Positions 14,382 to 62,134 of a stretch of 64,000 nt of DNA are shown here, piece by piece. The stretch spans positions 11,408,001 to 11,472,000 of the forward strand of contig OZ360228.1 of the NCBI GenBank assembly GCA_977017645.1. The letters are read 5' to 3'. The notes under the pieces are model-generated. The model was not told where the DNA came from. It saw only the letters and a program-made list of their open reading frames with translations, and searched no databases. Origin of the DNA: Torpedo marmorata. Taxonomy: Eukaryota. The position numbers and the translations under genes were made by a program. Each line of letters begins with the position of its first letter. Positions within the stretch are counted from its first letter, which is position 1.

Positions 14382-15844
14382 ATGACTACAAGAAAAGGGA
14401 AGGAGCAAAAGTTAAAGAAAACAGTGTTTAAAGAAAGTTTAATTCAAGGAGAAGATCAGCCTACCTTAGCGATGGAGCCTCGGGATCAAGTTCCTCTCCC
14501 TCCCAGAAGGATGCAGACGAGAACGGGTAAGGTAATCGTAACGCCAGCGCCGTCCTCCCGGGGAGCTGGGGAAGATGGCGCTGGTGCTCGAAGGAAGACT
14601 GGAGAACTACAAAAAGATAAGGAACAACTGCGCATGCACGAAATAACGTGCATGAGCGAAATGCAACGGGAGCAGCCAAAGAAGAACCCGCCGTTCAATC
14701 CAGTATATTGTTGGAGAAGAAAGGTCATCGTCAACGGACTCAGAAGATAAAGGGAGAAAGAAAGAAATGTATGAAGAAATGGAGAGACAAGTAAAAGAGA
14801 TGGAGGGAGAGGAAAGAGAAATAAGTGGAGGAGAAGAAACTCAGTTGTTTCAAGGTAAACAAGAAATATCAACTACTTTTATTCAAGCTATAAATTACTT
14901 AACAGAACAAGTGTCTACAATGAATCAACGTATGGAACATGGATTTAAGGCTATGGATACCAATTTTACTGAGTTTAAGGAAGAAATGAAAGACATTAAA
15001 TATAATATGAAAAAGTGTGCAACTGCTGTGGATAAAGTAACAGTGAAAGTTCAGAGAGTTGAAAACGAGGTTAAAGAATGTCGTGAAGAGATGGTGGACT
15101 GCAAAGATACAGTGGATAAAATGGAAAATTCATTTACAGGCTGGGAACAACAAAGAAATGAACTTTTACAAAAAATAGATACATTGGAGAATCAAAGCCG
15201 GAGAAACAATGTTAAAATTGTGGGATTGCCAGAAGGGATAAACTCAACCGAATTTTTTCAAAATTGGATTCCAAAGATTTTGGGTTATGAAAACTTCCCA
15301 AATGGACTTGAATTAGATAGAGCTCATAGAGATAACAGAAGGAAACCATATCCTGGACAAATGCCACGCTCAGTGTTAATTAGATGCCTTCGTTACCAGG
15401 ATAAAGAGATGATACTGAGATTAGCTGTTCAAAATGCAAGAAAGAAACAAGGTCCATTGATGATTAATAAAAACAGGGTGTGTTTTTATGCTGATTTAAG
15501 TGCAGCAATAATTAAAAAACGCAAAGAGTTTAACCTAGCCAAAGCAATCTTTTGGAACAAGGGATATAAATTTTCATTTAGATATCCTGCGATATTGAAA
15601 GTACAGTCTCGAGACAATCAGTCTGTTTTTTTTTGCTGACTATCAAGAAAATTTGAAACATGCTAATACACTTCCAAATTTAAAGAAAGATCAAGATTTG
15701 TCTGGGCAATTTCAAGCTACTATACCGGTTCAGGACTTGTTACACTTAACAGAGAAACTTCAAATAGCTTCAGGACGAGATGATTTGGCCGAATTGAGTA
15801 ATGATCAAGTTAACATAGATCTGGAAGATGTTAGATTTGGATGA
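14382..15844 (+). pseudogene. L1 ORF1p remnant (coiled coil, RRM, CTD), frameshifted
   Basis: KIDTLENQSRRNNVKIVGLPEG, LELDRAHR, PRSVLIRCLRYQDKE, FYADLS, FSFRYPAIL motifs. Confidence 0.9.
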
Positions 15845-16136
15845 AGAATCGATAACAAATGTTATGTAAAATCTGTTGGGGGGGGGGGGGGTGGACTTTT
15901 TTGTCTTCTCCGTACCTAACCACACATCACCTTAGTGGCGAGGGCCACTTTCCGAACAATAGAGGGGGGTAGTATTGGTGTAAATATACCAGTATTATAT
16001 AGTGGGTTTTTTCTTTTTTTCTTTTTTCTTTACTTCTTTTTTCCTTTTTTCTTTTTTAAGGAGATATCAAATTTATTGCAAATGTGGAAGGGGGAACCGG
16101 TTGGTCTAATAAGGAGGAAGTTAGTAAATATTGGTA

Positions 16137-19100
16137 ATGGCGGATAGTAAATCAATAAATGTTGTAAGTATTAATATAAATGGGCTAAATAATCCGATTA
16201 AAAGGAAGAAAACTCTGGCATATATTAAAAAGTTAAAAGTTGATATAGCTTTTTTTACAAGAGACACATTTGACAGATATAGAACATCAGAAGCTGAAAA
16301 GAGAATGGGTTGGTAAAGTGGTCGCGTCTTCATTTAATTCTAAAGCAAAAGGAGTTGCTATATTAATTAATAAAAAGTTACCTTTCAAAATACAATCTGT
16401 GGTTTTAGATGTGTCAGGAAGATTTGTTTTAATAAATTGTCAGATATATTCAGAAATGTGGACACTTATGAATATATATGTGCCAAATACGGAAGATGAA
16501 CAATTTATTCAAGATTCTTTTATGCACTTATCAGAAGCAAATGATAATATTTTTTTTATCGGTGGGGATTTTAATTGTTGTTTCGATCCAATAATACATA
16601 AAACATCGAAATCAACTATTAGAACTAAAACTGCGAAAATAATTCTTTCTTTGATGAAAGATTTGAATTTAATAGATATTTGGAGGAAGTTGAATCCAAA
16701 AGAAAAAGATTATTCCTTTTATTCTTTTAGACATATTCTTATTCTAGAATAGACATGTTTTTATTGTCATCACAATTAGAAGATAGAGTGACTCAAGCAA
16801 AATATAAAGCACGAATAATTTCTGATCACTCGCCTCTAATAATGTCATGTATAATTCCAGAAAAAGAAAAAAATATATATAGATGGAGATTAAATTCTTC
16901 TTTATTGAAAAGAATGGGTTTTTGTAATTATATACAAAGAGAAATTCAAGAATTTTTACAGATTAATTCTAATTCGATTGACAATAAATTTATTATTTGG
17001 GAAGCTCTAAAGGCTTATTTAAGAGGTCAAATAATAAGTTATTCAGCAAAACTTAAGAAGGAATATGTTCAGGAATTAGATAATTTGGAGAAGGTGATCG
17101 AGTTTCTGGAGAAGGATTTGCAAAAGAAGAGATCAGAAGAGAAGAGGAATTTAATCGAAAAAAAATTGTATTATAATACGTTACAAACATATAAAATGGA
17201 AAAATTAATTGAAAGAACTAAGCAAAGATATTATGAATTGGGAGAAAGAGCGCATAAAGTGTTGGCGTGACAATTAAAGAAAGAACAAACTTCTAGAACT
17301 ATAAATGCCATAAAAAAGCATTCAAAGAAAATAACATATAAACCTCGAGAAATAAATGATTCCTTTAGGAAATTTTATTTAAATTTATATAAATCCCAAA
17401 CTGATAAAGATGATTCTAAAATTAATGCATTTTTATCTAAAATTAAGTTACCTAGATTGAATATTCAAAATAAAGAACTTTTAGATTCATCATTTACGAT
17501 GAGAGAAGTTAATGACGTTCTTAGTTCTTTAACAAGTGGAAAATCTCCGGGGGAGGATGGTTTCCCACCAGAATTTTATAAGGAATTTAAGGATTTATTG
17601 ATACCTCCATATATGGAGGTGTTAAAACAAATAACGGAAACTCATTCTCTACCGGAAACATTTTTAAATGCAATAATAACAGTTATACCAAAAAAGATAG
17701 AGATTTGTTGAAAACAGAATCATGTAGACCAATTTCATTGTTAAATGTGGATTATAAGATAATGGTGAAAATTTTAGCAAATAGACTGGCTAAATATTTA
17801 CCAGATTTAATTCATGTAGATCAAGCAGGTTTTATTAAGAATAGATATTCAAAAGATAATATAGCCAGGTTAATCAGTTTAATAAATGTGGCACAAAAGA
17901 AAGAGGAATTAGCATTAGTATTAACATTAGATGCTGAAAAAGCTTTTGATAGATTAGAGTGGAATTATTTATTTAAAGTATTGGAAAAATTTGGTTTTGA
18001 AACTACATTTATTAATTGGATCAAAACTATATATAAAAGAACTTTCTGCCAGAGTGGTGACAAGTGGACAAATTTCTTCAAAATTTTTGTTGACTAGGTC
18101 GACTAGACAAGGATGTCCTTTGTCGCCAGCATTGTTTATTTTAGCAATAGAACCTTTAGCAGAATTAATTAGACAAGATATTAAGATTGTAGGTATTAAA
18201 GTTGGAAGAGAAGAGCATAAAATTAGTTTATTTGCAGATGATGTATTGATTTATATGACAAAACCTATTACTTCTTTAATACAATTGAATGTTTTATTGA
18301 AAGAATACGGGGAGATATCTGGTTATAAGATTAATTCTGATAAAAGTAAAATTATGGCATTGACACAAGGGGATTATAGTAAATGTAAAGAAATTACACA
18401 ATTTAAATGGTCAAAGGAAGGAATTAAATATTTGGGAATAAAGACATACAAAATTAGCTAATTTATATAAATTAAATTATTTTCCATTATTTATAAAAAT
18501 TAAAAATGATTTCGAAAGTTGGAAGGATTTACCTATAACTTTAATAGGAAGGGTAAATTGTATTAAAATGAATGTCTTTCCAAGAATTCAATATCTTTTT
18601 CAATCAATTCCTTTTGAAATTCTTTAAAGATTTAAATTTACCGGTAATTATTAGGAAGTTTTTGTGGAAAGGAAAGTTGGCTAGAGGTGGTATGCAGAAA
18701 TTAACTTGGAATTATGAAATGGATGATTTACAACTTCCTAATTTTCAAAATTATTATAAAGCAGCTCAATTAAAATTTATTAATTTTCAGGAAAATCTTC
18801 TGCTTGGATTAGAATAGAATTAAATAATATAGGAGAAGATTTGAAAGAAGTTATTTATAAATGGAATTCTAAATTATTATTAACAAGAGGGAAAAATTCT
18901 CCTATTTTTAAACATTTGTTAGAAATATGGAATAGAGTGGTAGGGAGATAGGAGGGAAAGGGTTAATTTCTCAAAAAATGCCTTTATATCAAAATAAACT
19001 TATTCCATTTACTGTTGATAATCAATTATTTAAAATTTGGTTCCAAAAGGGAATTAAGAAAATAAATGATTGTTTTGAAGCTAGTAAATGTATTACTTTT

Positions 19101-19900
19101 CAAAGAATGAAAAAAAAGTTTAATGTATTAAATAATACACTTTTTGCTTATTATCAAATCAGAGCATTTTTAGTTGAAAGGTTGGGTTATAGTTTGACTT
19201 TACCAAGACAAAGTGAACTGGAATTATTAGTTACTAATGGAGGTGTAAATAAATTTATTTCTCAAATGTATAGATTGTTACAGAGAAAAATGCCTAAATT
19301 AGGAATTCACAAATCAAGATTAAAATGGGAATCAGATCTGAATGTAACAATAGATGAAGAACATTGGAAAGAATTATGTAAACTAAGTATGACAAAGATT
19401 ATTAACGTTAGATATAGACTAGTGCAATATAATTTTTTTCATCAATTACATTTAACACCTAAAAAATTAAAGAAAGTTAAATCAACATTATCTGGTTTAT
19501 GTTTTAGATGTAATAGAGAGGAACGTACTTTTGTACATTCTACTTGGCTTTGTCCAAAGATATATGATTTTTGGTTGAAAGTTAAAAAGTTTTTAGACAA
19601 AGTATTAAGAATTACACTCCCAATGGACCCTATGATATTTTTGTTTGGAGATATTAAAAGAATTAGTATTAAGATGAAATTAAATATGTATCAAATAGAA
19701 TTTTTGCAAATTGCTTTAGCTGTTTCTAAGAAATGCATTGCTATTACATGGAAATCTGATGTGGATTTAGGGTTAGAAAGATGTCATGCAGAACTTCGTT
19801 CATGTATACCACTTGAAAAATTACTTATAATTTACGTAATAAATATCATTTCTTTTTGAAAATATGGAGCCCATATATAAAAACGGTTGGTTTAAGGATT
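16137..19900 (+). pseudogene. L1 ORF2p remnant (endonuclease, reverse transcriptase, zinc knuckle), multiple frameshifts and stops
   Basis: SININGLNNPIKRK, GGDFN, ISDHSP, KSPGEDGF, RPISLLNVDYK, LDAEKAFD, TRQGCPLSP, LFADD, KYLGI, CFRC...HSTWLC. Confidence 0.93.
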
Positions 19901-21610: not shown

Positions 21611-21689
21611 CAGATCAGTTGTTAATATCTTTGTTGGTAAACTATTCCTCAATTCTAGATCTTCTTACTAGAAAAACATGCAAATATTC

Positions 21690-21915
21690 TCCACTTTCTT
21701 TTGACATGCCCCTATCATCTTCATTTTCCTTTGACATGCCCCTATCGTCTCCATTTTTTACATGCCCCTATCTTCTCCATTTTTTACATGCCCCTATCAT
21801 CTTCATTTTCCTTTGACATGCCCCTATCTTCTCCATTTTTTACATGCCCCTATCTTCTCCATTTTTACATGCCCCTACTTTCTCCATTTTCTTTTGAAAT
21901 GCCCATATACTCTAT
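21690..21915. repeat. Minisatellite, ~25-30 bp unit (tttgacatgcccctatcttctccatttt), about 8 copies
   Basis: Repeated acatgccccta core visible directly. Confidence 0.9.
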
Positions 21916-27429: not shown

Positions 27430-27584
27430 CAAGAGGAATAATGAGAAATCTCATGTAGCTGAGCCAGTCCGGAGTCTTGTGCGATAGCTGCTCTACAAAG
27501 AGCTGTAGAATAGCGCTCAGGAAGTGCTGGGCTCCTGCCAAAGTCACTTTAATGGGATTTGGAGTTTGGGAGTTACAGTTACAG
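27430..27584 (-). CDS. PACS2: PACS2 exon ([51 protein letters not shown])
   Basis: tgtttgttttcag| and g|gtatgt; 155 nt, phase 2 to 1; contains [14 protein letters not shown]. Confidence 0.96.
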
Positions 27585-29210
27585 CTGAAAACAAACAGAA
27601 GATTCGGTGTTTATGTTTACAAAAAGATGATGGAATCTGAACAACAGTTCACATGTTTTAACAATGAATTGTCTTGAGGCTAATTTCATGAATCTGTCAA
27701 ACAAGATTTGACATCAAACCACTTAAGTTGGTACAGAGGCAGATCATGCAATCATGAAATAGAGGACCATGTTTGTACGAGCTTTGTGAAAGCACAATCG
27801 TGCCCGCATCCTTCCTTAGATTCCATCATCCTCTCAGTCTGTTTCTGTCCACTCTTTTTCAAAATCTATGGAATCAGCTACCACCACTTTTTCCAGATAG
27901 TATTCCACATCCCAACAACTCTGAGTAAAGGAAACCTCTGCTTCAGATGTTTTGCCAATGATTTTGAATCTGTGGTCCAAGAGTTTGATTTATCTCTCCC
28001 TTTTCCAGCAAAACAAAATTTAAGGCATAGCAACTGTTACATACAGTTCATTATAATGATTTTGCCTTTATTTTTACATTTGTAAACCATCAATTTGGCT
28101 TTCCACCTACAAGCTTTTGCCATTATACAAATACCAAAATCTGTGCTCATCTCAACTTTTCAAAATCCTGCCTCGTGTAATATATTTCCATGCTCACCCC
28201 CACCTCAAATGCCATCACTACTTCACCCCTATCGACACAGTGCCATCCACTCATGCCATTCTGAAGCCTTTAACTATCCTCATAACTGTCTACTACCTGG
28301 CCAGTTTACATACCTCTACATTTTCACAATACCCATACCACAGATACATAAAACATTATGAAGCAAAACAAACCCCAAACTACCCTTTGCAAATCTTCTC
28401 TCGGTCTGAAAAACATTAACCCACTACCCTTAGTTTCTGGTTACTAAGATTGTTGTATCAGTTTCACCATAATTCCCTCAAATCCACTATCTTTTAACTG
28501 TGTCATCACTTGTTGAAGATCACAAAACATCAGTGTTACCTTGTTTATCTGGTACACCATATAATCAGGTTAGTCAGATCCAGTTTCCTCATTACAAACT
28601 ATGCTGACGCTCCGCAATTAACCCTTGTTTTCCCCAAATTGAAGTTAATTCTGTCCTGCCTGCTACTTTCCCAACATTGGCTGGACTGTACTTTCCCAAC
28701 ATTGGCTGGACTGTACTTTCCAGATTACAAATAATCTCTCTCTTGAATATTACCTGCAGTTTTCCATCATTGTCCTTGAGGTTTAAAAGATTGAGACCAA
28801 TGTCTTTACTATGTCTTCCATTGTTTCTTTCATTAATCATGGATGCATTCCAGCTGGACTAGGTGACTTAACAACTTTTAATAATAAACTTTGTACACAA
28901 CCTGAAGCTTGGCCAGAAAAACAGGCTTTAAACAACTTTTTAAAAGTGATGAGAGGGCATTAGAGATTCAGGGAGAGGATTCTAGCACAAAATGCTTTGG
29001 TTGATAAAGGTATAACTGGCTCGAGTTGACCAATTATAAAAAAAAGAGCGAGAATCTGAGCAAAGGAAAGTTGGATGCAGGGGTAGATCACACAGATAAG
29101 GAGAGACGTCCATATAAGGACTTGGAGGATGAGCATGAGCAAATCAAGGTAATGTTTAACCAGGATATTATGAAGGTCCGCTGTGGAGAGTGAGCAGACC
29201 ATGTGTAAAT

Positions 29211-29726
29211 AGATTCAGATTTCAGATTTATTGTCAAAGTAAACACATGACATCACATACAACTCTGAGATTCTTTTTCCTGCAGGCCAGGCAGAATTAC
29301 CACTTATTGGTAGTGCAAAAAAAACTGTACACAATGTGCACATGTAAACAAATAAACAAATATAAATAAATGATTGTGCAATACAGAGAGGAGAAAAAAA
29401 AACAATAAAGTGCAAAAGTAAGAGCACTTAAATGAGTCCCTGATTGAGTTTGTTGTTGAGGAGTCAGATGCTGGAGGGGTAGCAGCTGTTCCTGTACCTG
29501 GTGGTGTGAGTCTTGTGGCACCTATACCTCTTTCCTGATGGTAGCAGCGAGAACAGAGCGTGTGCTGGGTGGTGTGGATCCTTGATGATTGCTACTGCTC
29601 TCCGACGGCAGAGCTCCCCGTAGATGTTCTCGATGGTGGGGAAAGTTTTGCCTGTGATGCCCTGGGCTGTGTCCACTACCTTTTGCAGGGCTTTACTCTC
29701 AGGGGTATTGTTGACCCCATACCAGA
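29211..29726 (-). mobile_element. Rex1/Babar LINE 3' fragment
   Basis: IIKDPHHPAHALFSLLPSGKRYR...SCYP motif; gacaataaa plus (tctgaaa)-type tail. Confidence 0.85.
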
Positions 29727-31061
29727 TATAAAATATGATTATGGAAGGAAAATTTTAGAAAAGTTTAAACTGATAGAGATGGTCAGATTTATGTTGAAAT
29801 GGACACATGGAGATTTCAGCAGCAGGTGAGCTAAGACTAGGGCAGGGTCAGGCAGCTAGAGGTGAGTGGGTGGAAGCTAACATCCTCCTTTTTGAGCAGT
29901 CTTTGTGCCTGGTTCCAAGAACCAGTTGACCTCTTCCCACTGCACTCAGTGTAGACTTTAGTCAATGCCTTTTGCGACACCAAAATAGTTAACCGTCAAA
30001 CTATCCAAATTTTGTCTTGGGGAAAACTGCCTGCACAACACTTTTTTCACATGCAGCCAAACACAATACCACAGACGGTTGCATCTAAATTAGGTTGCCA
30101 GTGTGTCTTCAAATCATTATTGTTACTGGGACTCTCTAATTGCCAGGAAGGAAGAACACAGGCCTCTCTGACTGAACACAACTGGAGCGAGACTATTGAT
30201 AGATACGTTGCCCTCTATTGACAAATTCAGAAGTTTGAAAACTTTTGAAGAAATGTTGTGCTCTACATGGATTCACAGGGCCCGTATCATTTCAGACAGC
30301 TCCCAAATATATTATTTTGGGAACAATTTCTATGCTAATTATACAGCAATAGACAATTTCTATAATATAACCAGTCGACCATTTGCTATTCACTTCCATT
30401 TAATCTTTAAATCTTGGCAGACCTTCAGTTTCAAAGATTAAATGGAAAGAAACATCAAAAGGCCCACAAGTTATATTTTGGAAAATGTCTATTGACAACC
30501 CATCTTTTCCCAGAATGATTCCAAACTGGGATAATTATAAATAAATGGTGCAGGAAGTGTGGCAAAGGATCAATGTCTAATTAAATCAACCCCATTCAAT
30601 ACACTCCAACTGTATGCTGCCTGTGAATTAATGTGATTCTATCTTGTAGTGTTAACTGTTTGGTGTTAAACTATGACCTGCACCTGAGCAGGGAAGACCA
30701 AAACCTATACATTACAAATTAAGAACTGGTGCGGGTGAAAGCAATTTGCTTAAGCAGTCTTAGTGCAAGACAGTGGGCTCCATGATTTTTTGATGTTGCA
30801 TTGGCAGAAGTGGAAAGGAAGAGAGAAGCCCTCTACCTACAAGAGGCAAGGAGGTCATCCAGACAGAAAGTCATGGAGGAGTTAGAGGAGGAGACAATTG
30901 GCTGCAGCCAAGCATCAAAGACTTGCAGTGCAACAAGAAATTCAATGACCTTGTATTTGTGTTCAAAGTCAGTGAATGAGTCAGTTTTTAAATGCCATAT
31001 TAAATGCCATAAGGTACCACACTTATCATCACACCTTTGTTCACTGTCCGACTGCCTTTAT

Positions 31062-32935
31062 CAATTTCAGATTTATTGTCAGAGTACATACATGACATCC
31101 TGAGATTCTTTTTTCTGCGGGCGAGGCAGAATTACCACTTATTGGTAGTCCAAAAAAAATGTACACAGCGTATACATGTAAACAAATGAACTGTAAACAG
31201 ATAACGAATGTAAACAAACTGACTGCAATACAGAGAGAATTTTTAAAAAATCAATAAAGTGCAAAAGTAAGAGTCCTTAAATGAGTCCCTAATTGAATTT
31301 GTTGTTGAGGAGACTGATGGTGGAGGGGTAGCAGCTGTTCCTGAACCTGGAGGTGCGAGTCTTGTGGCACCTATACCTCTTTCCTGATGGCAGCAGTGAG
31401 AATAGAGAGTGTGCTGGGTGGTGCGGATCCTTGATGATTGCTGCTGCTCTCCGACAGCAGCGTTCCCTGCAGATGTACTCAATAGTGGGGAGGGTTTTGC
31501 CTGTGATGTCCTGGGCTGTGTCCACTACCTTTTGGAGGGCTTTACATTCAGGTGTCCACATACCAGACCGTGATGCAGCCGGTCAGCACACTTTCCACCA
31601 CACATCTGGAGAAATTTGCCAGGGTTTCTGGTGTCATACCAAACCTCGTCAAACTCCTGAGGAAGTAGAGGCGTTGACGTGCTTTCTTCACGAATCCATT
31701 GGTGTGTTGGGTCCAGGAAAGATCCTCTGAGATAGTGATTCCCAAGAACTTAAATTTGCTCACCCTCTCCACCTCTGATCCCCCAATGATCACTGGATTG
31801 TATACCTCTGGCTTTCCCTTCCTGAAGTCAACAATTAGCTCCTTAGTTTTGGTGACATTGAGTGCAAGGTTGTTGTTGGTGCATCATTCAGCCAAGTTTT
31901 CAATCTCCCTCCTGTATGCTGACTCATTACCTTTCTTTATACAACCCACTACTGTGGTATCGTCGGCAAATTTGTAGATGGTGTTATTGTCGTACCGAGC
32001 CACACAGTCGTAGGTGTAAAGTGAGTAGAGCAGGGGGCTAAGAACGCAGCCCTGTGGTGCTCCGGTACTGATGGAGATTGCGGAGGAGATGTTCTTACCA
32101 ATCCTCACTGATTGTGGTCTGGAGGTGAGGAAATCCATGATCTAATTACACAGTGGGGTGTTGAGTCCCAGGTCTTGGAGTTTGCTGATCAGTTTTGAGG
32201 GAATGATGGTGTTAAATGCAGAACTGTAGTCGATAAAGAGCATCCTGATGAATGCATCTTTACTGTTCCAGGGCTTTGTGTAGAGCCAGTGAGATGGCAT
32301 CTGCCGTAGATCTGTTGCTACGATAGGCGAACTGGAACATATCCATGTCACCGCTCAGACAGGAGCTGATATGCTTCAACACAAGCCTTTCAAAACACTT
32401 CATCACTGTTGATGTAAGTGCTACTGGTCGATAGTCATTAAGGCAGGTTACTACACTCTTCTCGGGCACTGGTACGATTGTTGGAAACAGGTGGGTACCA
32501 CGCCCTGCTGGAGTGAGATATTGAAGATATCCGTGAATACTTTGGTAAGTTGGTCAGCACAGATTTTTAATACTCAGCCAGATACTCCGTCCGGGCCGGA
32601 TGCCTTCCTTGGATTCACTCTCCTGAAGGCAGCACGTATGTCATCCTCAGATACAGACAGGATGGGATCATCAGGGACGCGGGGGTGCGGAGGGGTGGTC
32701 CTTCAGTGTTACTGTCGACAAATCAGGTGTAGAAGGCATTGAGTTCCTCTGGGAGTGAAGCTTTGCCGTCTGCTACTTCACCGGATTTGGTTTTGTAACA
32801 GGTTATTGCATTTAGGTCCTGCAACAGCTGTCGGGTGTCCCTTGTTATTTCCATTTTCACCCAGAATCTCCACTTCGCCCGGGAGATAGTTTTTCACAGG
32901 TCATACCTGCTCCTTCTGTATTGATCTGGATCTCT
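31062..32935 (-). mobile_element. Rex1/Babar LINE, 5'-truncated, frameshifted RT
   Basis: [66 protein letters not shown]. Confidence 0.92.
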
Positions 32936-33679
32936 GGACTTAAATTAATTAGGGCTCATGGCTCAGTTGCTACTTCACATAATCTTACACTGATGCAAGA
33001 CTCAAGACCCCATTTCATAGCTCACTTGCTGCAAGTAGTTCAACATGAACGCTTCCCACTCCTGCAAGAGTATGGAGTCTGGGGCACCTGCCTTACCGCA
33101 TCCCATTGAGGAAATGGTGATGCACATAATTTGGGCAGCTGTAACTGAGGAATATGACCATTACTGGGGTTGATAATCATAGTGCTATCACTCTCTAATC
33201 CTGCTTCTTGTATCTTATACTTTCGCTTGGTTTACAAGGTGTAGATGGCACAATCATACTCTTCTTTCAACCACAACTGCTCTAAAAATCCTAGCCAATG
33301 GCCCTTAACTATTACATTTAACATAGTCAATGGTACTGCAGCCAAAAGACAGCAAAGATGAAAATCTACTGTTTGCTCAGCCATCAATGTAGATATGCTG
33401 GCACTTGACACAATGAAGAGTTATCTTAAAGGTGGATAAAGAGACAAGGCAGAACATATACTTTGTGGTTTAACAGCCTCTCTTTTCAGCCAAGTAGATT
33501 TTGTCACTGAACTCTCAATTATATCATTGCTGTAACACGTATAACATGGCTGGTTCCTCTCCTTTTCCCCAATTTCCTATTCTTTCTTAATAAATGCAGC
33601 CATAAATATTATGACCATGGCTCTCCATGATTGAGAAAGGTTTCTAATTGCTGCAGTATCGTGCCTGCCGTTTACAACC

Positions 33680-36600
33680 CTGGAATACCACCAGACGGCT
33701 TCTCAATCCACCGGATGGACCGCACACCGTCTCGAAGAAAAGCAAGAGGTGGTGGTGACTGCTTCCTCATCAACAACGTGTGGAACTCAGACATGGAGGT
33801 ACTGGCAAGTCCCTGCACCCCAAACCTGTCAGTCCTGGCGAGTCCCTGCCCCCCAAACCTGTCAGTACTGGCAAGTCCCTGCCCCCCAAACCTGTCAGTA
33901 CTGGCGGACCTTGCACCCAAAACCTGTCAGTCCTTGTGAGTCCCTGCAACCCAAACCTAGTGAGTCCCTGCCCCCCAAACCTGGCGAGTCCCTGCAACCC
34001 AAACCTGGCGAGTCCCTGCAACCCAAACCTGGCGAGTTCCTGCCCCCCAAACCTGGCGAGTCCCTGCCCCCCAAACCTGGCGAGTCCCTGCCCCCCAAAC
34101 CTAGTGAGTCCCTGCCCCCCAAACCTGGCGAGTCCCTGCCCCCCAAACCTAGTGAGTCCCTGCCCCCCAAACCTAGCGAGTCCCTGCCCCCCAAACCTGG
34201 CGAGTCCCTGCCCCCCAAACCTAGTGAGTCCCTGCCCTCCAAACCTAGCGAGTCCCTGCCCCCCAAACCTAGCGAGTCCCTGCCCCCCAAACCTAGCGAG
34301 TCCCTGCCCCCCAAACCTAGCGAGTCCCTGCCCCCCAAACCTAGTGAGTCCCTGCCCCCCAAACCTGGCGAGTCCCTGCCCCCCAAACCTGGCGAGTCCC
34401 TGCCCCCCAAACCTGGCGAGTCCCTGCCCCCCAAACCTGGCGAGTCCCTGCAACCCAAACCTGGTGAGTCCCTGCCCCCCAAACCTGGCGAGTCCCTGCC
34501 CCCCAAACCTGGCGAGTCCCTGCCCCCCAAACCTGGCGAGTCCCTGCAACCCAAACCTGGCGAGTCCCTGCCCCCCAAACCTGGCGAGTCCCTGCAACCC
34601 AAACCTAGCGAGTCCCTGCCCCCCAAACCTGGCGAGTCCCTGCCCCCCAAACCTGGCGAGTCCCTGCAACCCAAACCTGGTGAGTCCCTGCCCCCCAAAC
34701 CTGGCGAGTCCCTGCCCCCCAAACCTGGCGAGTCCCTGCCCCCCAAACCTGGCGAGTCCCTGCAACCCAAACCTGGTGAGTCCCTGCCCCCCAAACCTAG
34801 CGAGTCCCTGCCCCCCAAACCTGGCAAGTCCCTGCCCCCCAAACCTAGTGAGTCCCTGCCCCCCAAACCTAGCGAGTCCCTGCCCCCCAAACCTGGCGAG
34901 TCCCTGCCCCCCAAACCTGGCAAGTCCCTGCCCCCTAAACCTGGCGAGTCCCTGCAACCCAAACCTAGTGAGTTCCTGCCCCCCAAACCTAGTGAGTTCC
35001 TGCCCCCCAAACCTAGCGAGTCCCTGCCCCCCAAACCTAGTGAGTCCCTGCCCCCCAAACCTGGCGAGTCCCTGCCCCCCAAACCTAGTGAGTTCCTGCC
35101 CCCCAAACCTGGCGAGTCCCTGCCCCCCAAACCTAGTGAGTCCCTGCCCCCCAAACCTAGTGAGTCCCTGCCCCCCAAACCTGGCGAGTCCCTGCCCCCC
35201 AAACCTGGTGAGTCCCTGCCCCCCAAACCTAGCGAGTCCCTGCCCCCCAAACCTGGCGAGTCCCTGCAACCCAAACCTGGCGAGTCCCTGCCCCCCAAAC
35301 CTGGCGAGTCCCTGCCCCCCAAACCTAGTGAGTCCCTGCCCCCCAAACCTAGTGAGTCCCTGCCCCCCAAACCTAGTGAGTCCCTGCCCCCCAAACCTAG
35401 TGAGTCCCTGCCCCCCAAACCTAGCGAGTCCCTGCCCCCCAAACCTGGCGAGTCCCTGCCCCCCAAACCTGGCGAGTCCCTGCCCCCCAAACCTAGTGAG
35501 TCCCTGCCCCCCAAACCTAGTGAGTCCCTGCCCCCAAACCTAGTGAGTCCCTGCCCCCAAAACCTGGCGAGTCCCTGCCCCCCAAACCTAGTGAGTCCCT
35601 GCCCCCCAAACCTAGTGAGTCCCTGCCCCCCAAACCTAGTGAGTCCCTGCCCCCCAAACCTAGTGAGTCCCTGCCCCCCAAACCTAGTGAGTCCCTGCCC
35701 CCCAAACCTAGTGAGTCCCTGCCCCCCAAACCTAGTGAGTCCCTGCCCCCCAAACCTAGTGAGTCCCTGCCCCCCAAACCTAGTGAGTCCCTGCCCCCCA
35801 AACCTAGTGAGTTCCTGCCCCCCAAACCTGGCGAGTCCCTGCCCCCCAAACCTAGTGAGTCCCTGCCCCCCAAACCTAGTGAGTCCCTGCCCCCCAAACC
35901 TAGTGAGTCCCTGCCCCCCAAACCTAGTGAGTCCCTGCCCCCCAAACCTAGTGAGTCCCTGCCCCCCAAACCTGGCGAGTCCCTGCCCCCCAAACCTGGC
36001 GAGTCCCTGCAACCCAAACCTGGCGAGTCCCTGCCCCCCAAACCTAGTGAGTCCCTGCCCCCCAAACCTAGTGAGTCCCTGCCCCCCAAACCTAGTGAGT
36101 CCCTGCCCCCCAAACCTAGTGAGTCCCTGCCCCCCAAACCTAGTGAGTCCCTGCCCCCCAAACCTGGCGAGTCCCTGCCCCCAAACCTAGTGAGTCCCTG
36201 CCCCCCAAACCTGGCGAGTCCCTGCCCCCAAAACCTAGTGAGTCCCTGCAACCCAAACCTGGCGAGTCCCTGCCCCCCAAACCTGGCGAGTCCCTGCCCC
36301 CCAAACCTGGCGAGTCCCTGCCCCCCAAACCTGGCGAGTCCCTGCCCCCCAAACCTGGCGAGTCCCTGCCCCCCAAACCTAGCGAGTCCCTGCCCCCCAA
36401 ACCTAGCGAGTCCCTGCCCCCCAAACCTAGTGAGTCCCTGCCCCCCAAACCTAGTGAGTCCCTGCCCCCCAAACCTGGCGAGTCCCTGCCCCCCAAACCT
36501 GGCGAGTCCCTGCCCCCCAAACCTGGCGAGTCCCTTCCCCCGCAAACCTAGTGGGTTCCTGCCCCCCAAACCTGGCGAGTCCCTGCCCCCCAAACCTAGT

Positions 36601-38545
36601 GAGTTCCTACCCCCCAAACCTAGCGAGTCTCTGCCCCCCAAACCTGGCGAGACCCTGCCCCCCAAACCTGGCGAGTCCCTGCCCCCCAAACCTAGTGAGT
36701 TCCTGCCCCCCAAACCTGGCGAGTCCCTGCCCCCCAAACCTGGCGAGTCCCTGCCCCCCAAACCTAGCGAGTCTCTGCTCCCCAAACCTAGTGAGTCCCT
36801 GCCCCCCAAACCTGGCGAGTCCCTGCCCCCCAAACCTAGTGAGTTCCTGCCCCCCAAACCTAGCGAGTCCCTGCCCCCCAAACCTAGTGAGTCCCTGCCC
36901 CCCAAACCTAGTGAGTTCCTGCCCCCCAAACCTAGCGAGTCCCTGCCCCCCAAACCTAGTGAGTTCCTGCCCCCCAAACCTAGTGAGTCCCTGCCCCCCA
37001 AACCTAGTGAGTCCCTGCCCCCCAAACCTGGCGAGTCCCTGCCCCCCAAACCTGGCGAGTCCCTGCAACCCAAACCTGGCGAGTCCCTGCCCCCCAAACC
37101 TGGCGAGTCCCTGCCCCCCAAACCTAGTGAGTTCCTGCCCCCCAAACCTAGTGAGTCCCTGCCCCCCAAACCTAGTGAGTTCCTGCCCCCCAAACCTAGC
37201 GAGTCCCTGCCCCCCCAAACCTAGTGAGTCCCTGAACCCCAAACCTAGTGAGTCCCTGAACCCCAAACCTAGTGAGTCCCTGCCCCCCAAACCTGTCAGT
37301 CCTGGCGAGTCCCTGCCCCCCAAACCTGTCAGTCCTGGCGAGTCCCTGCCCCCCAAACCTAGTGAGTTCCTGCCCCCCAAACCTAGCGAGTCCCTGCCCC
37401 CCAAACCTAGTGAGTCTCTGCCCCCCAAACCTAGTGAGTTCCTGCCCCCCAAACCTAGTGAGTTCCTGCCCCCCAAACCTAGCGAGTCCCTGCCCCCCAA
37501 ACCTAGTGAGTCCCTGCCCCCCAAACCTAGTGAGTTCCTGCCCCCCAAACCTAGTGAGTCCCTGCCCCCCAAACCTAGTGAGTTCCTGCCCCCCAAACCT
37601 AGTGAGTCCCTGCCCCCCAAACCTGTCAGTACTGGCGGCCCCTGCCCCCCAAACCTGGTGAGTCCCTGCCCCCCAAACCTGTCAGTCCTGGCGAGTCCCT
37701 GCCCCCCAAACCTGGCGAGTCCCTGGCCCCCAAACCTGGTGAGTCCCTGCCCCCCAAACCTGTCAGTCCTGGCGAGTCCCTGCCCCCCAAACCTGGTGAG
37801 TCCCTGCCCCCCAAACCTGGCGAGTCCCTGCCCCCCAAACCTGGCGAGTCCCTGCACCGCAAACCTGTCAGTCCTGGCGAGTCCCTGCACCCCAAACCTG
37901 GACCATCTAATCATGAAGTGCTGTCACCAATACCTCACGCGGGAGCTCATATCAGCTGTACTGACAGTCGACTACATTCCACTCCAAGTGAACGCAAAGC
38001 TACCACTGGATGAACTATTCACCTCCATCAGCAGCCTTGAAAGGAAACGCTCCGAAGCCAGGGACTTCACCCACGTCGACTTCAAGAGCGTGCTAACTAA
38101 ATTTCACCAGCATGTCACCTGCCTCACCAGAGGCTCTAAAACCCTTGACCACTGCTACACAACCAGCCAAAGCACCTACTACTAAATCCCATGCCAGCAC
38201 TTTGGTAAATCAGGCCAACGTACAGCGCTTCTCTACCTGCTGATGGGCAGCTGAGACACAAGGACCTGGCAGTAAAAGTCATGCATCACTAGACTGAGGA
38301 AACAGACGACATCTTATGTGACTGCCTTGAGTCAATAGACTGATCTACATTAAGGACTCAGCAACCAACCTCAATAAATATCCCACTGCCGTCGCTAACT
38401 TCATCAGCAAGTGTGAAGAAAACTGCTAGCCAACTGGAAATCATTGCTGAACTGCCAAGTCCACTCACTTCTGAAGGCCAGCTCTGATGCACTCATGTCA
38501 GGTGAAACCCAGGTATGACCTCTGCAAGGCCATCAGAGATGATCT
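33680..38545 (+). mobile_element. Old Rex1/Babar LINE fragment (endonuclease region) split by a 4.1-kb minisatellite
   Basis: PDGFSIHRMDRT...RGGGDCFLINN..VLASPCTPNL before the array continues as DHLIMKC..YLTREL..AVLTVDYIP...HVTCLTRGSKTLDHCY after it. Confidence 0.85.
33799..37900. repeat. Minisatellite/VNTR, 24-bp unit cct(g/a)g(c/t)gagtccctgccccccaaa, about 170 copies; 33-bp variant units near both ends
   Basis: Directly visible; produces the 8-aa periodic ORFs on both strands. Confidence 0.98.
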
Positions 38546-39374
38546 AGACGTGTCTCTGGACTTGCAGAACCCCTACTTCATTGTGTTTTTTGCCCAGATG
38601 AAAAAATGGGTTCTCTGAGTCCTGGCCAACATTCTTCCCTCAACTTGTTCCTATACTAGTTCTTATGCAAAAATCGCACAATGGAATGTTTTGAGGTACT
38701 ACAATAGTGTGAAACTGTATAACTGTAAAAGTCAGTATATTCTTCCTGTTGCAATTACCAGTGCGATCAGATAATTAAAATAAATCATTGATTTTTTTCC
38801 TTTTTTTATAATATATCTGAACTAATTTTTCCATGATTTTGAATTGACTTATAACCAAGCACAAATGCTCTGTCAGTGCGAGTAGATCTAAATATGCTAA
38901 CATCTCATTAAAAGACCACTCCATCTGTGTCAGCCCTGGTGTAATGTTTGTGAAACAGACAGCATCTGGGGAGAAGTTGCTTCTTTTTCTCTCTTTCCTA
39001 AATGCTCATGATATACTCAGCTTGCTGAAAATATTCTGTTCTAATTTCATGTTTCATGCATTCCTATTCTTTATTACAATTAATTTTGCTTTACATGCTT
39101 GTGGCAAGGTCCTTTGACCCAGAAGCAACAGCTTCATCAACTAATCAAATAAGCCACTGGCAGAGTAAGGAGTGAGTTGGACAATTCTCCATTGGGCAGG
39201 AGGTATTGCTTTTACTGTTCTAAAACCCAGTCTTCAACAGATACCTTTTGCTAGATGAAGGTATGGAGAAAAGAAAATGTAAAACTTTATTAAATTAAAA
39301 GGGATTAGAAGGGACTTCAGTGAGTTTGAAAGCAAAGAAAGGTGTTATAAATGTAATTACTTGTAAATACAATT

Positions 39375-41445
39375 ACCCAGTGGTGAGGACGGCGAAAGTA
39401 TGGTCGAGGGGGGCGGAGGAGCGTCTGCAGGACTGCTTTGAATTGGTGGACTGGAACATATTCAAGCACTCATTCATAGACCTGAATGAATATGCAACAG
39501 GTGTCACCGACTTCATCAAGACCTGCGTGGATGAGTGTGTGCCCACGCGCAAATACCGGGTGTTCCCCAACCAGAAGCCCTTGATGAATCAGAGAATTCG
39601 CAACCTGCTGAGGGCGAGAACAAGGGCGTTTAAGGCCGGGGATCGGGATCTTTACAAGAAGTCCAGGCACGACCTGCGGAAGGCCATCTCTGAAGCAAAG
39701 TGGCAATTCCAGAGGAAGCTAGAGACAGAGACACGCCAGCTATGGCAGGGAGTGCAGGCCATTACAGCCTACAAAGCGAGGGAGAACACTATAGACAGCT
39801 GTGATGCTTCACTACCCGATGAGCTGAACACCTTCTACGCCCGCTTTGAGAAGAAGAACCAAACAGTGCCTACTAGAATCCCTGAAAAGGCTGAGGACCC
39901 TGTGATATCTGTCTCTGAGGGCGACGTCAGATCATCATTCAAGAGGGTGAACCCTCGCAAGGCGTCAGGCCCTGACGGCGTACCTGGCAGGGTACTGAAA
40001 ATCTGCGCCAACCAACTAGCCGGAGTGTTCACAGACATTTTCAACCTCTCATTGCGGCAGTCAGAGGTTCCCACCTGCTTCAAAAGGGCATCAATCATCC
40101 CGGTACCCAAGAAGAGTAGTGTGGGCTGCGTCAATGACTACCGCCCAGTAGCACTAACTTCTACTGTGATGAAATGCTTTGAGAGGCTGGTCATGGCCAG
40201 AATTAACACGTACCTAAGCAAATATCTGGACCAACTGCAATTTGCCTATCGTCACAATCGCTCCACAGCAGATGCAATATCGCTGGCTCTCCACTCAGAT
40301 CTGGATCACCTCGAAAACAGCAATTCATACATACGGCTGCTCTTCATCGACTACAGCTCGGCCTTCAATACCATTATTCCCTCAGTGCTGGTCAAGAAGC
40401 TACAAACTCTAGGCCTCTGTACCCCACTCTGCAACTGGATCCTTGACTTTCTCATCGGAAGACCACAGTCAGTACGAATTGGAAACAACGTCTCCTCCTC
40501 ACTGATTATCAACACAGGCGCACCCCAAGGATGCGTGCTTAGTCCACTGCTCTACTCGTTATACACTCATGACTGTGTGGCCAGTCACAATTCCAATGCC
40601 ATCTACAAGTTTGCCGATGACACCACAGTTGTCGGCAGAATCACAAACGGCAATGAGGAAGCGTACAGGAGGGAGATAGATCAGCTCGTTGAATGGTGTA
40701 ACGACAACAACCTTGAGCTCAACGTGAGAAAAACCAAGGAGATGATTGTGGACTTCAGGAGGAAGTCAGAGGAACACGACCCAGTCCTCATCGAGGGCTC
40801 AGTAGTGGAGAGGGTCAAGAACTTAAAATTCCTGGGTGTCAACATCTCCGAGGATCTGTCCTGGAGCCTCCACGTTGATGCAATCACAAAGAAGGCTCGT
40901 CAGCGGCTATACTTTGTGAGGTGTCTGAGGAGATTCAGTATGTCACCGAAGACTCTCGTAAACTTCTACAGGTGTACCGTGGAGAGCATTCTGGATGGTT
41001 GCATCACTGCCTGGTATGGAGGTGCCAACTCTCAGGACAAGAGTAAACTCCAGAGGGTTGTTAACTCGGCCTGTGACATCACAGGCACCAAACGTCACTC
41101 CATCGAGGACATCTACATGAGGCGGTGTCTTAAAAAAGCAGCCTCTATCCTCAAAGACCCCCACCACCCAGGCCATGCCCTCTTCACTCTGCTTCCATCG
41201 GGAAAAAGGTACAGGAGCCTAAAGACGAGCACTCAACGGCACAAGGACAGCTTCTTCCCCGCTGCCATCAGATTCCTGAATAATCAATGAACCAGACACT
41301 GCCTTACTTTTCGTGCACTATTATTTATAATTTTTTATAGTAATGTCGTAAGATGGTTATAATATGAATGTTAATTGCACTGTGATGCTGCCACAAAACA
41401 CCTAATTTCATGACTTGTTCATGACAATAAATTCTGATTCTGATT
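39375..41445 (+). mobile_element. Young 5'-truncated Rex1/Babar LINE with uninterrupted RT-containing ORF
   Basis: Stop-free frame to 41290 with [39 protein letters not shown]; ends gacaataaattctgattctgatt; endonuclease missing. Confidence 0.95.
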
Positions 41446-41681
41446 TTGGAAAAAATACATCCATTTTCCCATGCAAGGGTATATTCTAATTTCATATCCA
41501 TCTTTACAAGAACAGATATTTTAACGCACAACCTCTTTCTGATCAGCTTCACAGAGATCAAATTTGTGTTTAAAGGTGATTCCAAGTTCTATTACAGACA
41601 CAAATATACAAATACATGCCTTTCAACTCAAGCATAAAATTATAATCAATAATCATGAGAGTCATGAACATTTCAACTCAC

Positions 41682-41788
41682 AAGCGTTGTATCCTGGAAA
41701 CAATTGTCGTGAATGCTGCTTGTATATCGGCAGAAGAATATGTGCACACAATAGGGAGGTTGTGTTTCTGTAGTAACTCGGAGACATA
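41682..41788 (-). CDS. PACS2: PACS2 exon ([36 protein letters not shown])
   Basis: ctaccttacag| and tt|gtgagt; 107 nt, phase 0 to 2. Confidence 0.95.
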
Positions 41789-49553: not shown

Positions 49554-50002
49554 CAGGTGCCTAACCTTTTATACGAAATTCCGAAAACCGAACATTTTTT
49601 CCAGTATATTTTCAGGTGTTTAGCTTAGTTTGAGCCAGTTAATGTTTGAAGTTTTACTGTATGTTTTACTTAAAAATAAAAAGTACGTTAGTAATTTTAT
49701 GGTCTATCTTTATCTCACTTCATTTACCACCATCCCCCCCGTCCAGCGCCGCCGCGAACACCCCTGTCCAGCACCGCCGCGAATGCCGCCGCGAACACCC
49801 CCGTCCAGCACCGCTGCAACCCCCCCATCCAGCGCCGCCGTCCAGAAACCCTTCTAGTTGGAGTGTGTCTTTGTTTTGCGCGAATCTGAAGCAACGCAAT
49901 TATTTAAAAGTACCGCCGTTAAAATAATTCTATGATTCGAAAAAATCCGAATTCCGAAAAGTGTCCGGTCCCAAGGTTTTTGGATAAAAGGTTAGGCACC
50001 TG
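49554..50002. mobile_element. Tc1/mariner-superfamily (pogo/Tigger-like) MITE, copy 1 (449 bp)
   Basis: TIR caggtgcctaaccttttat / ataaaaggttaggcacctg with flanking TA; near-identical to 61500-62134 outside an internal GC-rich repeat. Confidence 0.9.
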
Positions 50003-61499: not shown

Positions 61500-62134
61500 C
61501 AGGTGCCTAACCTTTTATCCGTAATTCCGAAAACCGAACATTTTTTTCCAGTATATTTTCAGGTGTTTAGCTTAGTTTGAGCCAGTTAATGTTTGAAGTT
61601 TTACTGTATGTTTGACTTAAAAATAAAAAGTATGCTAGTAATTTTATGGTCTATCTTTATCTCACTTCATTTACCGCCCCCATCCAGCGCCGCGCTGCGA
61701 ACGCCCCCATCCAGCGCCTCTGCGAACACCACCGCGAACCCACCCCATCCAGCGCCACCGCGAACACACCCGTACTGCGCCGATGCGAACACCCCCATCC
61801 TGCACTGCCGCGAACACCCCTGTCCTGCGCCGCCGCACACACCCCCATCCTGCGCAGCCGCGAACACCCCCATGCAGCGCAGCCACGAGCGCTGCCGCGA
61901 ACACCCCCGTGCAGCGCCGCCACAACCTCCCCCCCATCAAACGCCGCCACAACCCCCCCATCAAGCGCCGCTGTCCAGAAACCCTTCTAGTTGGAGTGTG
62001 TCTTTGTTTTGGAGAATCTGAAGCAACGCAATTATTTAAAAGTACCGCCGTTAAAATAATTCTATAATCCGAAAAAATCCGAATTCCAAAAAGTGTCCGG
62101 TCCCAAGGTTTTCGGATAAAAAGTTAGGCACCTG
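61500..62134. mobile_element. pogo/Tigger-like MITE, copy 2 (635 bp) with expanded internal GC-rich repeat
   Basis: Same TIRs and TA TSD as 49554-50002; longer ccatccagcgccgc..gaacacc array. Confidence 0.9.

What the first reader, a model, noticed from the sequence alone, without database searches (positions are those of the whole stretch)
33799..37900. 4.1-kb minisatellite born from a LINE endonuclease coding sequence
Seen: removing the array restores a continuous Rex1/Babar endonuclease frame (...DMEVLASPCTPNL|DHLIMKC...). The seed ctggcaagtccctgcaccccaaac is followed by a second ctgg 24 nt later, a microhomology that can explain the first slippage. The ancestral gcaccc variant and 33-bp units survive near the two edges, while the core is homogenised 24-mers. 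Inference: a clear record of a minisatellite's birth and ~170-fold amplification from TE coding DNA.
Basis: partly seen in the sequence, partly recalled or inferred. Interest (0 to 1): 0.7.

Follow-up and report, generated by a model that had tools for sequence, protein, structure and literature searches.

The report
Minisatellite grown inside dead LINE fragment
Inside an intron of the PACS2 gene of what is likely a ray, a short piece of a dead jumping gene has been copied about 167 times in a row, likely first as a 33-letter unit that a 24-letter one later overgrew; repeats born from jumping genes are well known, and this is a clear but ordinary example.

Summary
The array is real and single-locus: 167 units (152 x 24 bp, ten of 32-33 bp). 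Removing 33828-37899 rejoins an old, dead LINE endonuclease fragment in register: 34 of 35 other copies align with no extra bases. The family is Rex1/Babar-like by architecture and RT motif; no tree was possible. The family carries an 8/9 direct repeat exactly 33 bp apart, and 33-mers sit at both edges sharing rare variants. Contigs of another organism hold about five consecutive 33-type units at the orthologous right junction. The 24-mer is likely a later 9-bp deletion between two CCTG. The core is a mosaic of variants, not homogeneous. The array lies in a 14-kb PACS2 intron. Two more arrays arose in 2 of 73 family loci, no more often than in flanking DNA. Predicted G-quadruplex propensity rises along the inferred series, an untested lead. 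TE-derived minisatellites are known (7,276 in human), and this scan noted a MITE-derived one elsewhere in this genome. New member of a known kind.

The parts
33675..33798 (+). Left flank: dead LINE endonuclease fragment; 5' limit approximate
   Evidence: Family copies begin to align at about 33675-33690; 35-47% protein identity to the endonuclease region of a younger family
33788..33796 (+). Left member of the 9-bp imperfect direct repeat at 33-bp spacing (CAGACATGG)
   Evidence: 8/9 match in the family majority, 7/9 in the host copy, best self-match of offsets 14-49
33799..33827 (+). Left-edge parent unit, decayed at 33801 and 33807 relative to the family
   Evidence: Column counts over 35 copies
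33828..33958 (+). Four 33/32-bp units, likely the older array layer
   Evidence: Unit decomposition
33959..37294 (+). Core of 139 short units (24 bp; four of 23 or 25 bp), a mosaic of variants with local clustering and multi-unit block duplications
37295..37899 (+). Right zone: six 33/32-bp units among 17 24-mers; the last unit is a 33-mer with the ancestral A
   Evidence: 33-mer junctions also in runs X2-X4
37893..37901 (+). Right member of the 9-bp direct repeat (CAAACCTGG)
37900..38541 (+). Right flank: rest of the endonuclease and linker; a 5-codon gap removes the residues before the DF motif, stop at 38183; breaks off at 38541, no RT in this copy
   Evidence: family contigs diverge from the window at 38541
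27584..41683 (-). PACS2 intron (about 14.1 kb) that holds the LINE fragment and the array; the LINE is antisense to the gene
   Evidence: Exons 41791-41684 (aa 503-538) and 27583-27428 (aa 540-591) of P0121

Best explanation
This is a single-locus minisatellite of 167 units that sits inside a dead LINE endonuclease fragment in a PACS2 intron, and it likely began as a 33-bp duplication that a 24-bp deletion derivative later overgrew. Step 1 (shown): an old LINE copy, now 15% from its family majority, lies antisense in the intron, and the array interrupts it with no net loss or gain of LINE bases. Step 2 (inferred): mispairing or unequal exchange between the 9-bp imperfect direct repeats 33 bp apart duplicated the segment between them, and a short 33-mer array grew. 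Step 3 (inferred): a 9-bp deletion between the two CCTG in tandem 33-mers made the 24-mer. Step 4 (inferred from unit order): 24-mers expanded from the interior by local one-unit and multi-unit duplications and pushed the 33-mers to both ends, while CpG decay and point changes made the mosaic. Step 5 (predicted, untested): the A-to-C change and the shortening raise G-quadruplex propensity and may have sped the expansion. The array is most likely neutral intronic DNA.
For: In-register join: 34 of 35 distinct copies with no inserted base; collinear protein match. Single locus: the 24-mer pattern has 122 hits in 6.2 Gb and 122 in the window; all 8 hits of the 33-mer junction are in the array. 33-bp repeat: 8/9 at offset 33, one of three pairs of 8/9 or better at offsets 14-60 along the family majority; 0.0012 of 5000 shuffles give this at offset 33. 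The 33-mer's extra bases GTCCTG match the family sequence upstream of the 24-mer. Edge 33-mers share the GTACTGG variant and a 32-bp form between 33894 and 37625. Organism B: joints AAACCTG-TCAGT-CCTGG in X2, X3 and X4; X3 record 17 and X4 record 26 run from such units into the right flank to 38013 and 38042 with 4 and 7 other letters plus 8 gap letters each, far closer than paralogs (at most about 75%), where the window has 24-mers. Local growth: identical neighbours 45 against 26.7 +/- 4.2 shuffled; six repeated 4-unit words against 0.8. The flanking-repeat model is described in PMC3389668 and PMC6947457 (passages read).
Against: The junction bases TCA match neither the host's GAG nor, fully, the family's G[CT][GA]; a clean slip needs about three further substitutions, so a duplication with a 3-nt filler fits as well. 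The 24-bp spacing also has a microhomology (CTGG, CCTGG in the family state). Only 15 of 33 joints were shown, so the lack of a listed 24-bp joint in organism B does not show that it lacks 24-mers. X2-X4 are one sample of one study, and one of the five units in record 17 is inferred from length only. The left junction was not examined in other organisms. The L101 array (49 bp) has no 8/9 repeat at its offset in the family majority, so such repeats are not required. There are 0 canonical G3N1-7 quadruplex motifs in the array.
Confidence: 0.75

Rival explanations
1. 24-first: slippage between the two CTGG 24 bp apart founded the array, and the 33-mer arose later by insertion of TCAGT plus a repeated CCTG, or by a second duplication.
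For: A 4-bp microhomology (5 bp in the family state) exists at 24 bp. TCA does not match the host's upstream GAG, and TCAG occurs at 33787, a possible template.
Against: Long units flank the core at both ends (0 of 20000 draws) and share rare variants across 3.7 kb. Both terminal units belong to the 33-bp frame. Organism B has consecutive 33-type units at the right junction. The better repeat is at 33 bp.
Confidence: 0.15
2. The founding event was a break-repair tandem duplication of about 30 bp with a 3-nt filler (TCA) rather than slippage at the 9-bp repeat; later steps as in the best explanation.
For: It explains TCA without extra substitutions, and leaves a terminal unit 3 of 33 bases short, the feature PMC3389668 assigns to the Taylor-Breden model (passage read). 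L023, L090 and L092 also read GAG at this place, so GAG may be older than the array.
Against: It leaves the 8/9 repeat at exactly 33 bp as a coincidence (0.0012 in shuffles). The CA of TCA equals the CpG-decayed family state.
Confidence: 0.25
3. The unit is a dispersed satellite that inserted here from elsewhere, or the array is an assembly artefact.
For: The two 23-bp units and one 25-bp unit differ only in C-run length, as long-read errors would. The total length was not checked with reads.
Against: All 122 and all 8 genome-wide pattern hits lie in this array. The unit is the LINE's own sequence at this position. Independent runs of another organism hold the units joined to the right flank. 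Ordered variant structure is not what a collapse or expansion error makes.
Confidence: 0.03
4. The array is a coding repeat: its 24-bp unit keeps frames open for up to 851 codons and could be a repeat exon.
For: Open frames of 430-850 codons on both strands.
Against: Any stop-free 24-mer gives such frames, and the 23/25/32-bp units shift them. The flanking PACS2 exons are consecutive in the homolog (aa 538 to 540).
Confidence: 0.02

Closest known systems
TE-derived minisatellites in the human genome (Ahmed and Liang 2012, PMC3389668; abstract and passages read)
   Same: A tandem array whose unit is part of the TE it sits in, single-locus, expanded by local duplication after insertion; 7,276 such repeats, 300 of them with flanking direct repeats.
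   Different: Here the source is a Rex1/Babar-like LINE endonuclease region in a cartilaginous fish, the array is long (167 units), and two unit lengths record a likely succession.
Haber and Louis 1998 flanking-repeat model (seen only as described in PMC3389668 and PMC6947457)
   Same: A 5-10 bp direct repeat flanks the duplicated motif; later growth by slippage, conversion or unequal exchange.
   Different: The repeat here is imperfect (7/9 in the host, 8/9 in the family), the junction carries an unexplained TCA, and a second microhomology event likely shortened the unit.
Alu-, B1- and MaLR-derived minisatellites and LINE ORF2-related satellites such as PROsat, Pvc 20 and chicken HinfI (tables in PMC9659126 and PMC6947457; passages read)
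   Same: Tandem repeats built from retrotransposon sequence, including LINE coding sequence.
   Different: No Rex entry was found in PMC9659126 (0 hits for the term); the satellites are multi-locus families, whereas this is one locus with both parent flanks in place.
Human G-rich minisatellite CEB1 (Ribeyre et al. 2009, PMC2673046; abstract and outline only)
   Same: GC-rich, strand-skewed unit with G-runs, a mosaic of unit variants.
   Different: Quadruplex formation and instability are shown for CEB1 and only scored by script here; canonical short-loop motifs are absent.

Membership tests
Rex1/Babar non-LTR retrotransposons | AP endonuclease upstream of RT | tested here: met
   Shown through relatives: host flanks match the region of a younger family that scores PF14529/PF03372 weakly, below the curated cut-offs, and is followed in one ORF by PF00078 and PF09004. 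Fish homologs carry PF03372+PF00078+PF09004. The host fragment itself has no RT.
Rex1/Babar non-LTR retrotransposons | RT motif targeted by the Rex1 primer RTX1-F1 (reads FSSAFNT; primer sequence from PMC4635592) | tested here: met
   Old-family copies L008, L027 and L092 run collinearly from the endonuclease to YSSAFNT; unrelated neighbours in L098 and L101 read FSKAFD.
Rex1/Babar non-LTR retrotransposons | Placement in the Rex1/Babar clade by RT phylogeny with named references | not testable with these tools
   None of the 120 listed homologs is named Rex1 or Babar; no Repbase or Dfam library is held.
Rex1/Babar non-LTR retrotransposons | Conserved 3' UTR with a tail of 5-7 nt repeats | not tested
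   The host fragment ends at 38541, before RT; 3' ends of other copies were not examined.
TE-derived minisatellite | Unit of 10-100 bp homologous to, and embedded in, a TE | tested here: met
Haber-Louis origin | 5-10 bp direct repeats spaced by one unit length | tested here: met
   9-bp repeat at 33 bp (8/9 family, 7/9 host); only 4-5 bp at 24 bp.
Taylor-Breden origin | Incomplete terminal unit | tested here: inconclusive
   The left-edge unit lacks the TCA of the 33-mer; this may be incompleteness or later substitution.
Dispersed satellite family | Same unit at several loci | tested here: not met
   122 of 122 and 8 of 8 exact-pattern hits lie in this array.
VNTR | Length polymorphism among individuals | not testable with these tools
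   Only short-read contigs of other organisms were listed; they differ in unit make-up but give no allele lengths.
G-quadruplex-destabilised minisatellite (CEB1 type) | Units fold into G4 and instability depends on it | tested here: inconclusive
   Script score only: 73% of 25-nt windows at or above 1.2 against 1.7% elsewhere, but 0 canonical short-loop motifs and 62 with loops up to 13.

The most novel reading that the evidence does not exclude
The locus records motif succession driven by structure. A weakly quadruplex-prone 33-mer born from LINE coding DNA stayed a short array in one lineage, while in another an A-to-C change and a 9-bp deletion made a G4-forming 24-mer (score 0.82 to 1.03 to 1.29-1.38) that out-amplified its parent to 4 kb. 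The G-rich strand is PACS2 pre-mRNA and might affect the gene's transcription or splicing. With the parent sequence, the intermediate and the product all readable, this would be a ready test of whether gain of G4 potential turns a quiet repeat into an expanding one.
Probability: 0.2. Interest if true: 0.55.

Novelty: new member of a known kind. Interest (0 to 1): 0.3.

Why it matters
The origin of minisatellites is hard to observe; PMC3389668 could assign only 6% of human TE-derived repeats to a known initiation model. Here the pre-repeat state can be read from dozens of sister LINE copies, both flanks survive, and another organism holds what looks like the earlier stage, so the order of events is testable. 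That makes it a tidy case study and a likely polymorphic marker, not a new phenomenon. Its wider value depends on whether the G4 lead holds.

Tried and rejected
Same-site expansion in other family copies: three exact patterns gave 0 hits. Sensitivity is low, since only 25 places match even the single 18-mer exactly, so this shows no hot spot but does not exclude one. Enrichment of arrays in the family: 2 arrays next to about 80 kb of Rex-like coding sequence against 3 in about 152 kb of other sequence in 73 distinct loci, and 0 in about 65 kb of the young family; no enrichment is claimed. A close subfamily sister of the host: none; the best, L023, shares 34 of 99 non-majority states against a median of 19%. 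Pfam on the host flanks alone: nothing above cut-off (the weak Peptidase_C107 hit was set aside). Protein search with the right flank: 0 of 94 candidates scored. PDB search with a young endonuclease: nothing meaningful. No RNA holder was listed. Depth (X1 145 and 119 on the units against roughly 10-18 on single contigs) was not used as a copy number. Taylor and Breden 2000 was not held; it, Haber and Louis 1998, Jurka and Gentles 2006 and Volff 2000 were seen only as cited. Literature searches listed no report of a Rex-derived minisatellite in sharks or rays, but the library lacks most subscription journals and no supplements were read.
Full report
Observation. TRF reports a 24-bp array of 155.9 copies at 33938-37680, with 33-bp blocks at 33802-33967 and near the right end. 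Cutting at the AAACCT anchor gives 167 anchors and 166 units between them: 152 of 24 bp, 8 of 33, 2 of 32, 2 of 23 and 2 of 25. With the left-edge unit that makes 167. The added DNA is 4072 bp, 33828-37899.

The flanks are one element. The left flank translates to ...NSDMEVLASPCTPNL and the right to DHLIMKCCHQY.... Searches of the window's own 6.2-Gb genome with each flank returned 40 scored matches each, the other copies at 67-90% identity; 30 loci were taken from each. With the array left out, 29 of 58 loci aligned across the site. After adding loci, 43 of 82 spanned it, 35 distinct, 34 with no inserted base and one with four. Against a younger relative the left flank ends at L133:1108 and the right flank runs on through 1109. 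The host is a dead fragment of about 33675-38541: 114 of 748 positions differ from the family majority, five codons are missing before the DF motif, and there is a stop at 38183.

Family. The host's own flanks score nothing above cut-off in Pfam. Its younger relatives have one frame with a weak endonuclease signal, RT and PF09004, and 2393 homologs, the named ones mostly from fish, none of the 120 listed called Rex1. Old-family copies L008, L027 and L092 run on collinearly to YSSAFNT, which matches the peptide of the Rex1 primer RTX1-F1 (PMC4635592, passages read). PMC6274825 (passages) describes Rex1 as AP endonuclease plus RT. I call the element Rex1/Babar-like; the defining RT tree could not be built.

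Born here, once. The 24-mer pattern has 122 hits in the genome and 122 in the window. The 33-mer junction has 8 hits, all in the array. Three patterns for a duplication at the same site in other copies gave none, a weak test because only 25 places match the single-site 18-mer exactly.

Which unit came first. Four results favour the 33-mer. First, the family majority has CAGAC[GA]TGG and CAGACCTGG exactly 33 bp apart (8/9; 7/9 in the host), the best self-match of offsets 14-49 at the site; it is one of three such pairs along the family majority, and 0.0012 of 5000 shuffles reach it at this offset. Second, the 33-mer's extra bases GTCCTG are the family's upstream bases, and most units keep the family state (C at 33801 in 30 of 35 copies, G at 33807 in 25 of 35) where the left-edge unit has decayed. 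Third, the ten long units lie at both ends, and the units at 33894 and 37625 share GTACTGG and a 32-bp length, as expected if one block was split from within. Fourth, runs X2-X4 of organism B (one sample, one study) show the joint AAACCTG-TCAGT-CCTGG, and X3 record 17 and X4 record 26 run from such units into the right flank. By its coordinates record 17 holds five consecutive 33-type units, one inferred from length only, where the window has 24-mers. In tandem 33-mers, deleting nine bases between the two CCTG gives the 24-mer exactly.

Against this: the junction triplet TCA is not the host's GAG and matches the family's G[CT][GA] only in part, so a repair duplication with a filler fits too. 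Only 15 of 33 joints were shown, so absence of 24-mers in organism B is not shown. The left junction was not examined in other organisms.

How it grew. The core is a mosaic: AGTG 68, GGCG 61, AGCG 20 and GGTG 7 among 156 short units, mean pairwise difference 7.3%. Identical neighbours number 45 against 26.7 +/- 4.2 in shuffles. Six 4-unit words recur against 0.8 expected, including one 6-unit block at 34415 and 34631. The GCAACCC variant is skewed left and AGTTCC right. This fits local duplication of one to six units with occasional exchange; the molecular route is inferred from general knowledge of minisatellites. My implementation of the G4Hunter score (method and 1.2 threshold recalled) rises in magnitude from 0.82 (33-mer with A) to 1.03 (33-mer with C6) to 1.29 and 1.38 (the two main 24-mers). 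No canonical short-loop motif exists and 62 do with loops up to 13. G4-dependent instability is shown for CEB1 (PMC2673046, abstract only); here it is a lead.

Context. A PACS exon at 512-742 led to PACS2 homologs, the best from Narcine bancroftii at 97%. Twelve exon matches map on the minus strand, and the array lies in the intron between 41684 and 27583, whose flanking exons are consecutive in the homolog.

How common. Among 73 distinct old-family loci two more arrays have grown from this family's endonuclease region, L032 (46 bp x 12) and L101 (49 bp x 6.7), against three in the other sequence of the same loci and none in 65 kb of the young family. This is recurrence without enrichment. The scan has an unchecked note of a MITE-derived array elsewhere in this genome (e1-9868830); a word search found nothing further.

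Known and new. PMC3389668 (abstract and passages) counts 7,276 TE-derived minisatellites in human and describes the flanking-repeat and incomplete-unit models. PMC6947457 and PMC9659126 (passages) list SINE, LTR and LINE-ORF sources. PMC8327921 (passages) shows that mosaic motif structure and block duplication are usual in VNTRs. A preprint on shark and ray genomes (10.1101/2025.06.08.657570, passages) reports abundant simple tandem repeats in some rays. My six searches listed no Rex-derived case in cartilaginous fish; supplements and subscription journals were not seen.

Verdict. Real, born in place, correctly identified as LINE-derived; the founding unit is likely the 33-mer rather than the 24-mer. 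New member of a known kind; interest 0.3.

Noticed in passing
L032:980-1531 (in G000:C76:37556988-37560123): An independent 46-bp x 12 minisatellite grown from the same LINE family, from the segment about 100 bp upstream of the one amplified in the window.
   Followed up: partly
L101:1729-2061 (in G000:C40:30534977-30537994): An independent 49-bp x 6.7 minisatellite from the family's later endonuclease segment, matching window about 38113-38160; it is cut at its right end by a fragment with a CR1-type RT motif.
   Followed up: partly
window 512-58396, minus strand: Twelve exon matches of PACS2 (aa 365-813 of P0121); nearest named protein is from Narcine bancroftii at 97%, so the genome is likely an electric ray or relative.
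   Followed up: yes
window 39380-41290 +: A younger, 5'-truncated copy of a related LINE with an open 663-codon frame (PF00078 + PF09004), 96-98% identical to many genomic copies, in the same intron.
   Followed up: partly
window 31302-32657 - and 29453-29699 -: Further Rex-like RT fragments, about 70% identical to the copy at 39380.
   Followed up: no
window about 14400-19900 +: A long AT-rich element with a coiled-coil first frame, an endonuclease (PF03372) and RT-like frames, broken by frameshifts; L1-like by my recall of such proteins.
   Followed up: no
window 49736-49840 and 61732-61971: Two short GC-rich arrays with a similar 24-25 bp unit (CCGCGAACACCCCCATCC...), possibly one dispersed family.
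   Followed up: no
window 21676-21908 and 2692-2820: Other small minisatellites (26-bp and 29-bp periods); the window is rich in them.
   Followed up: no
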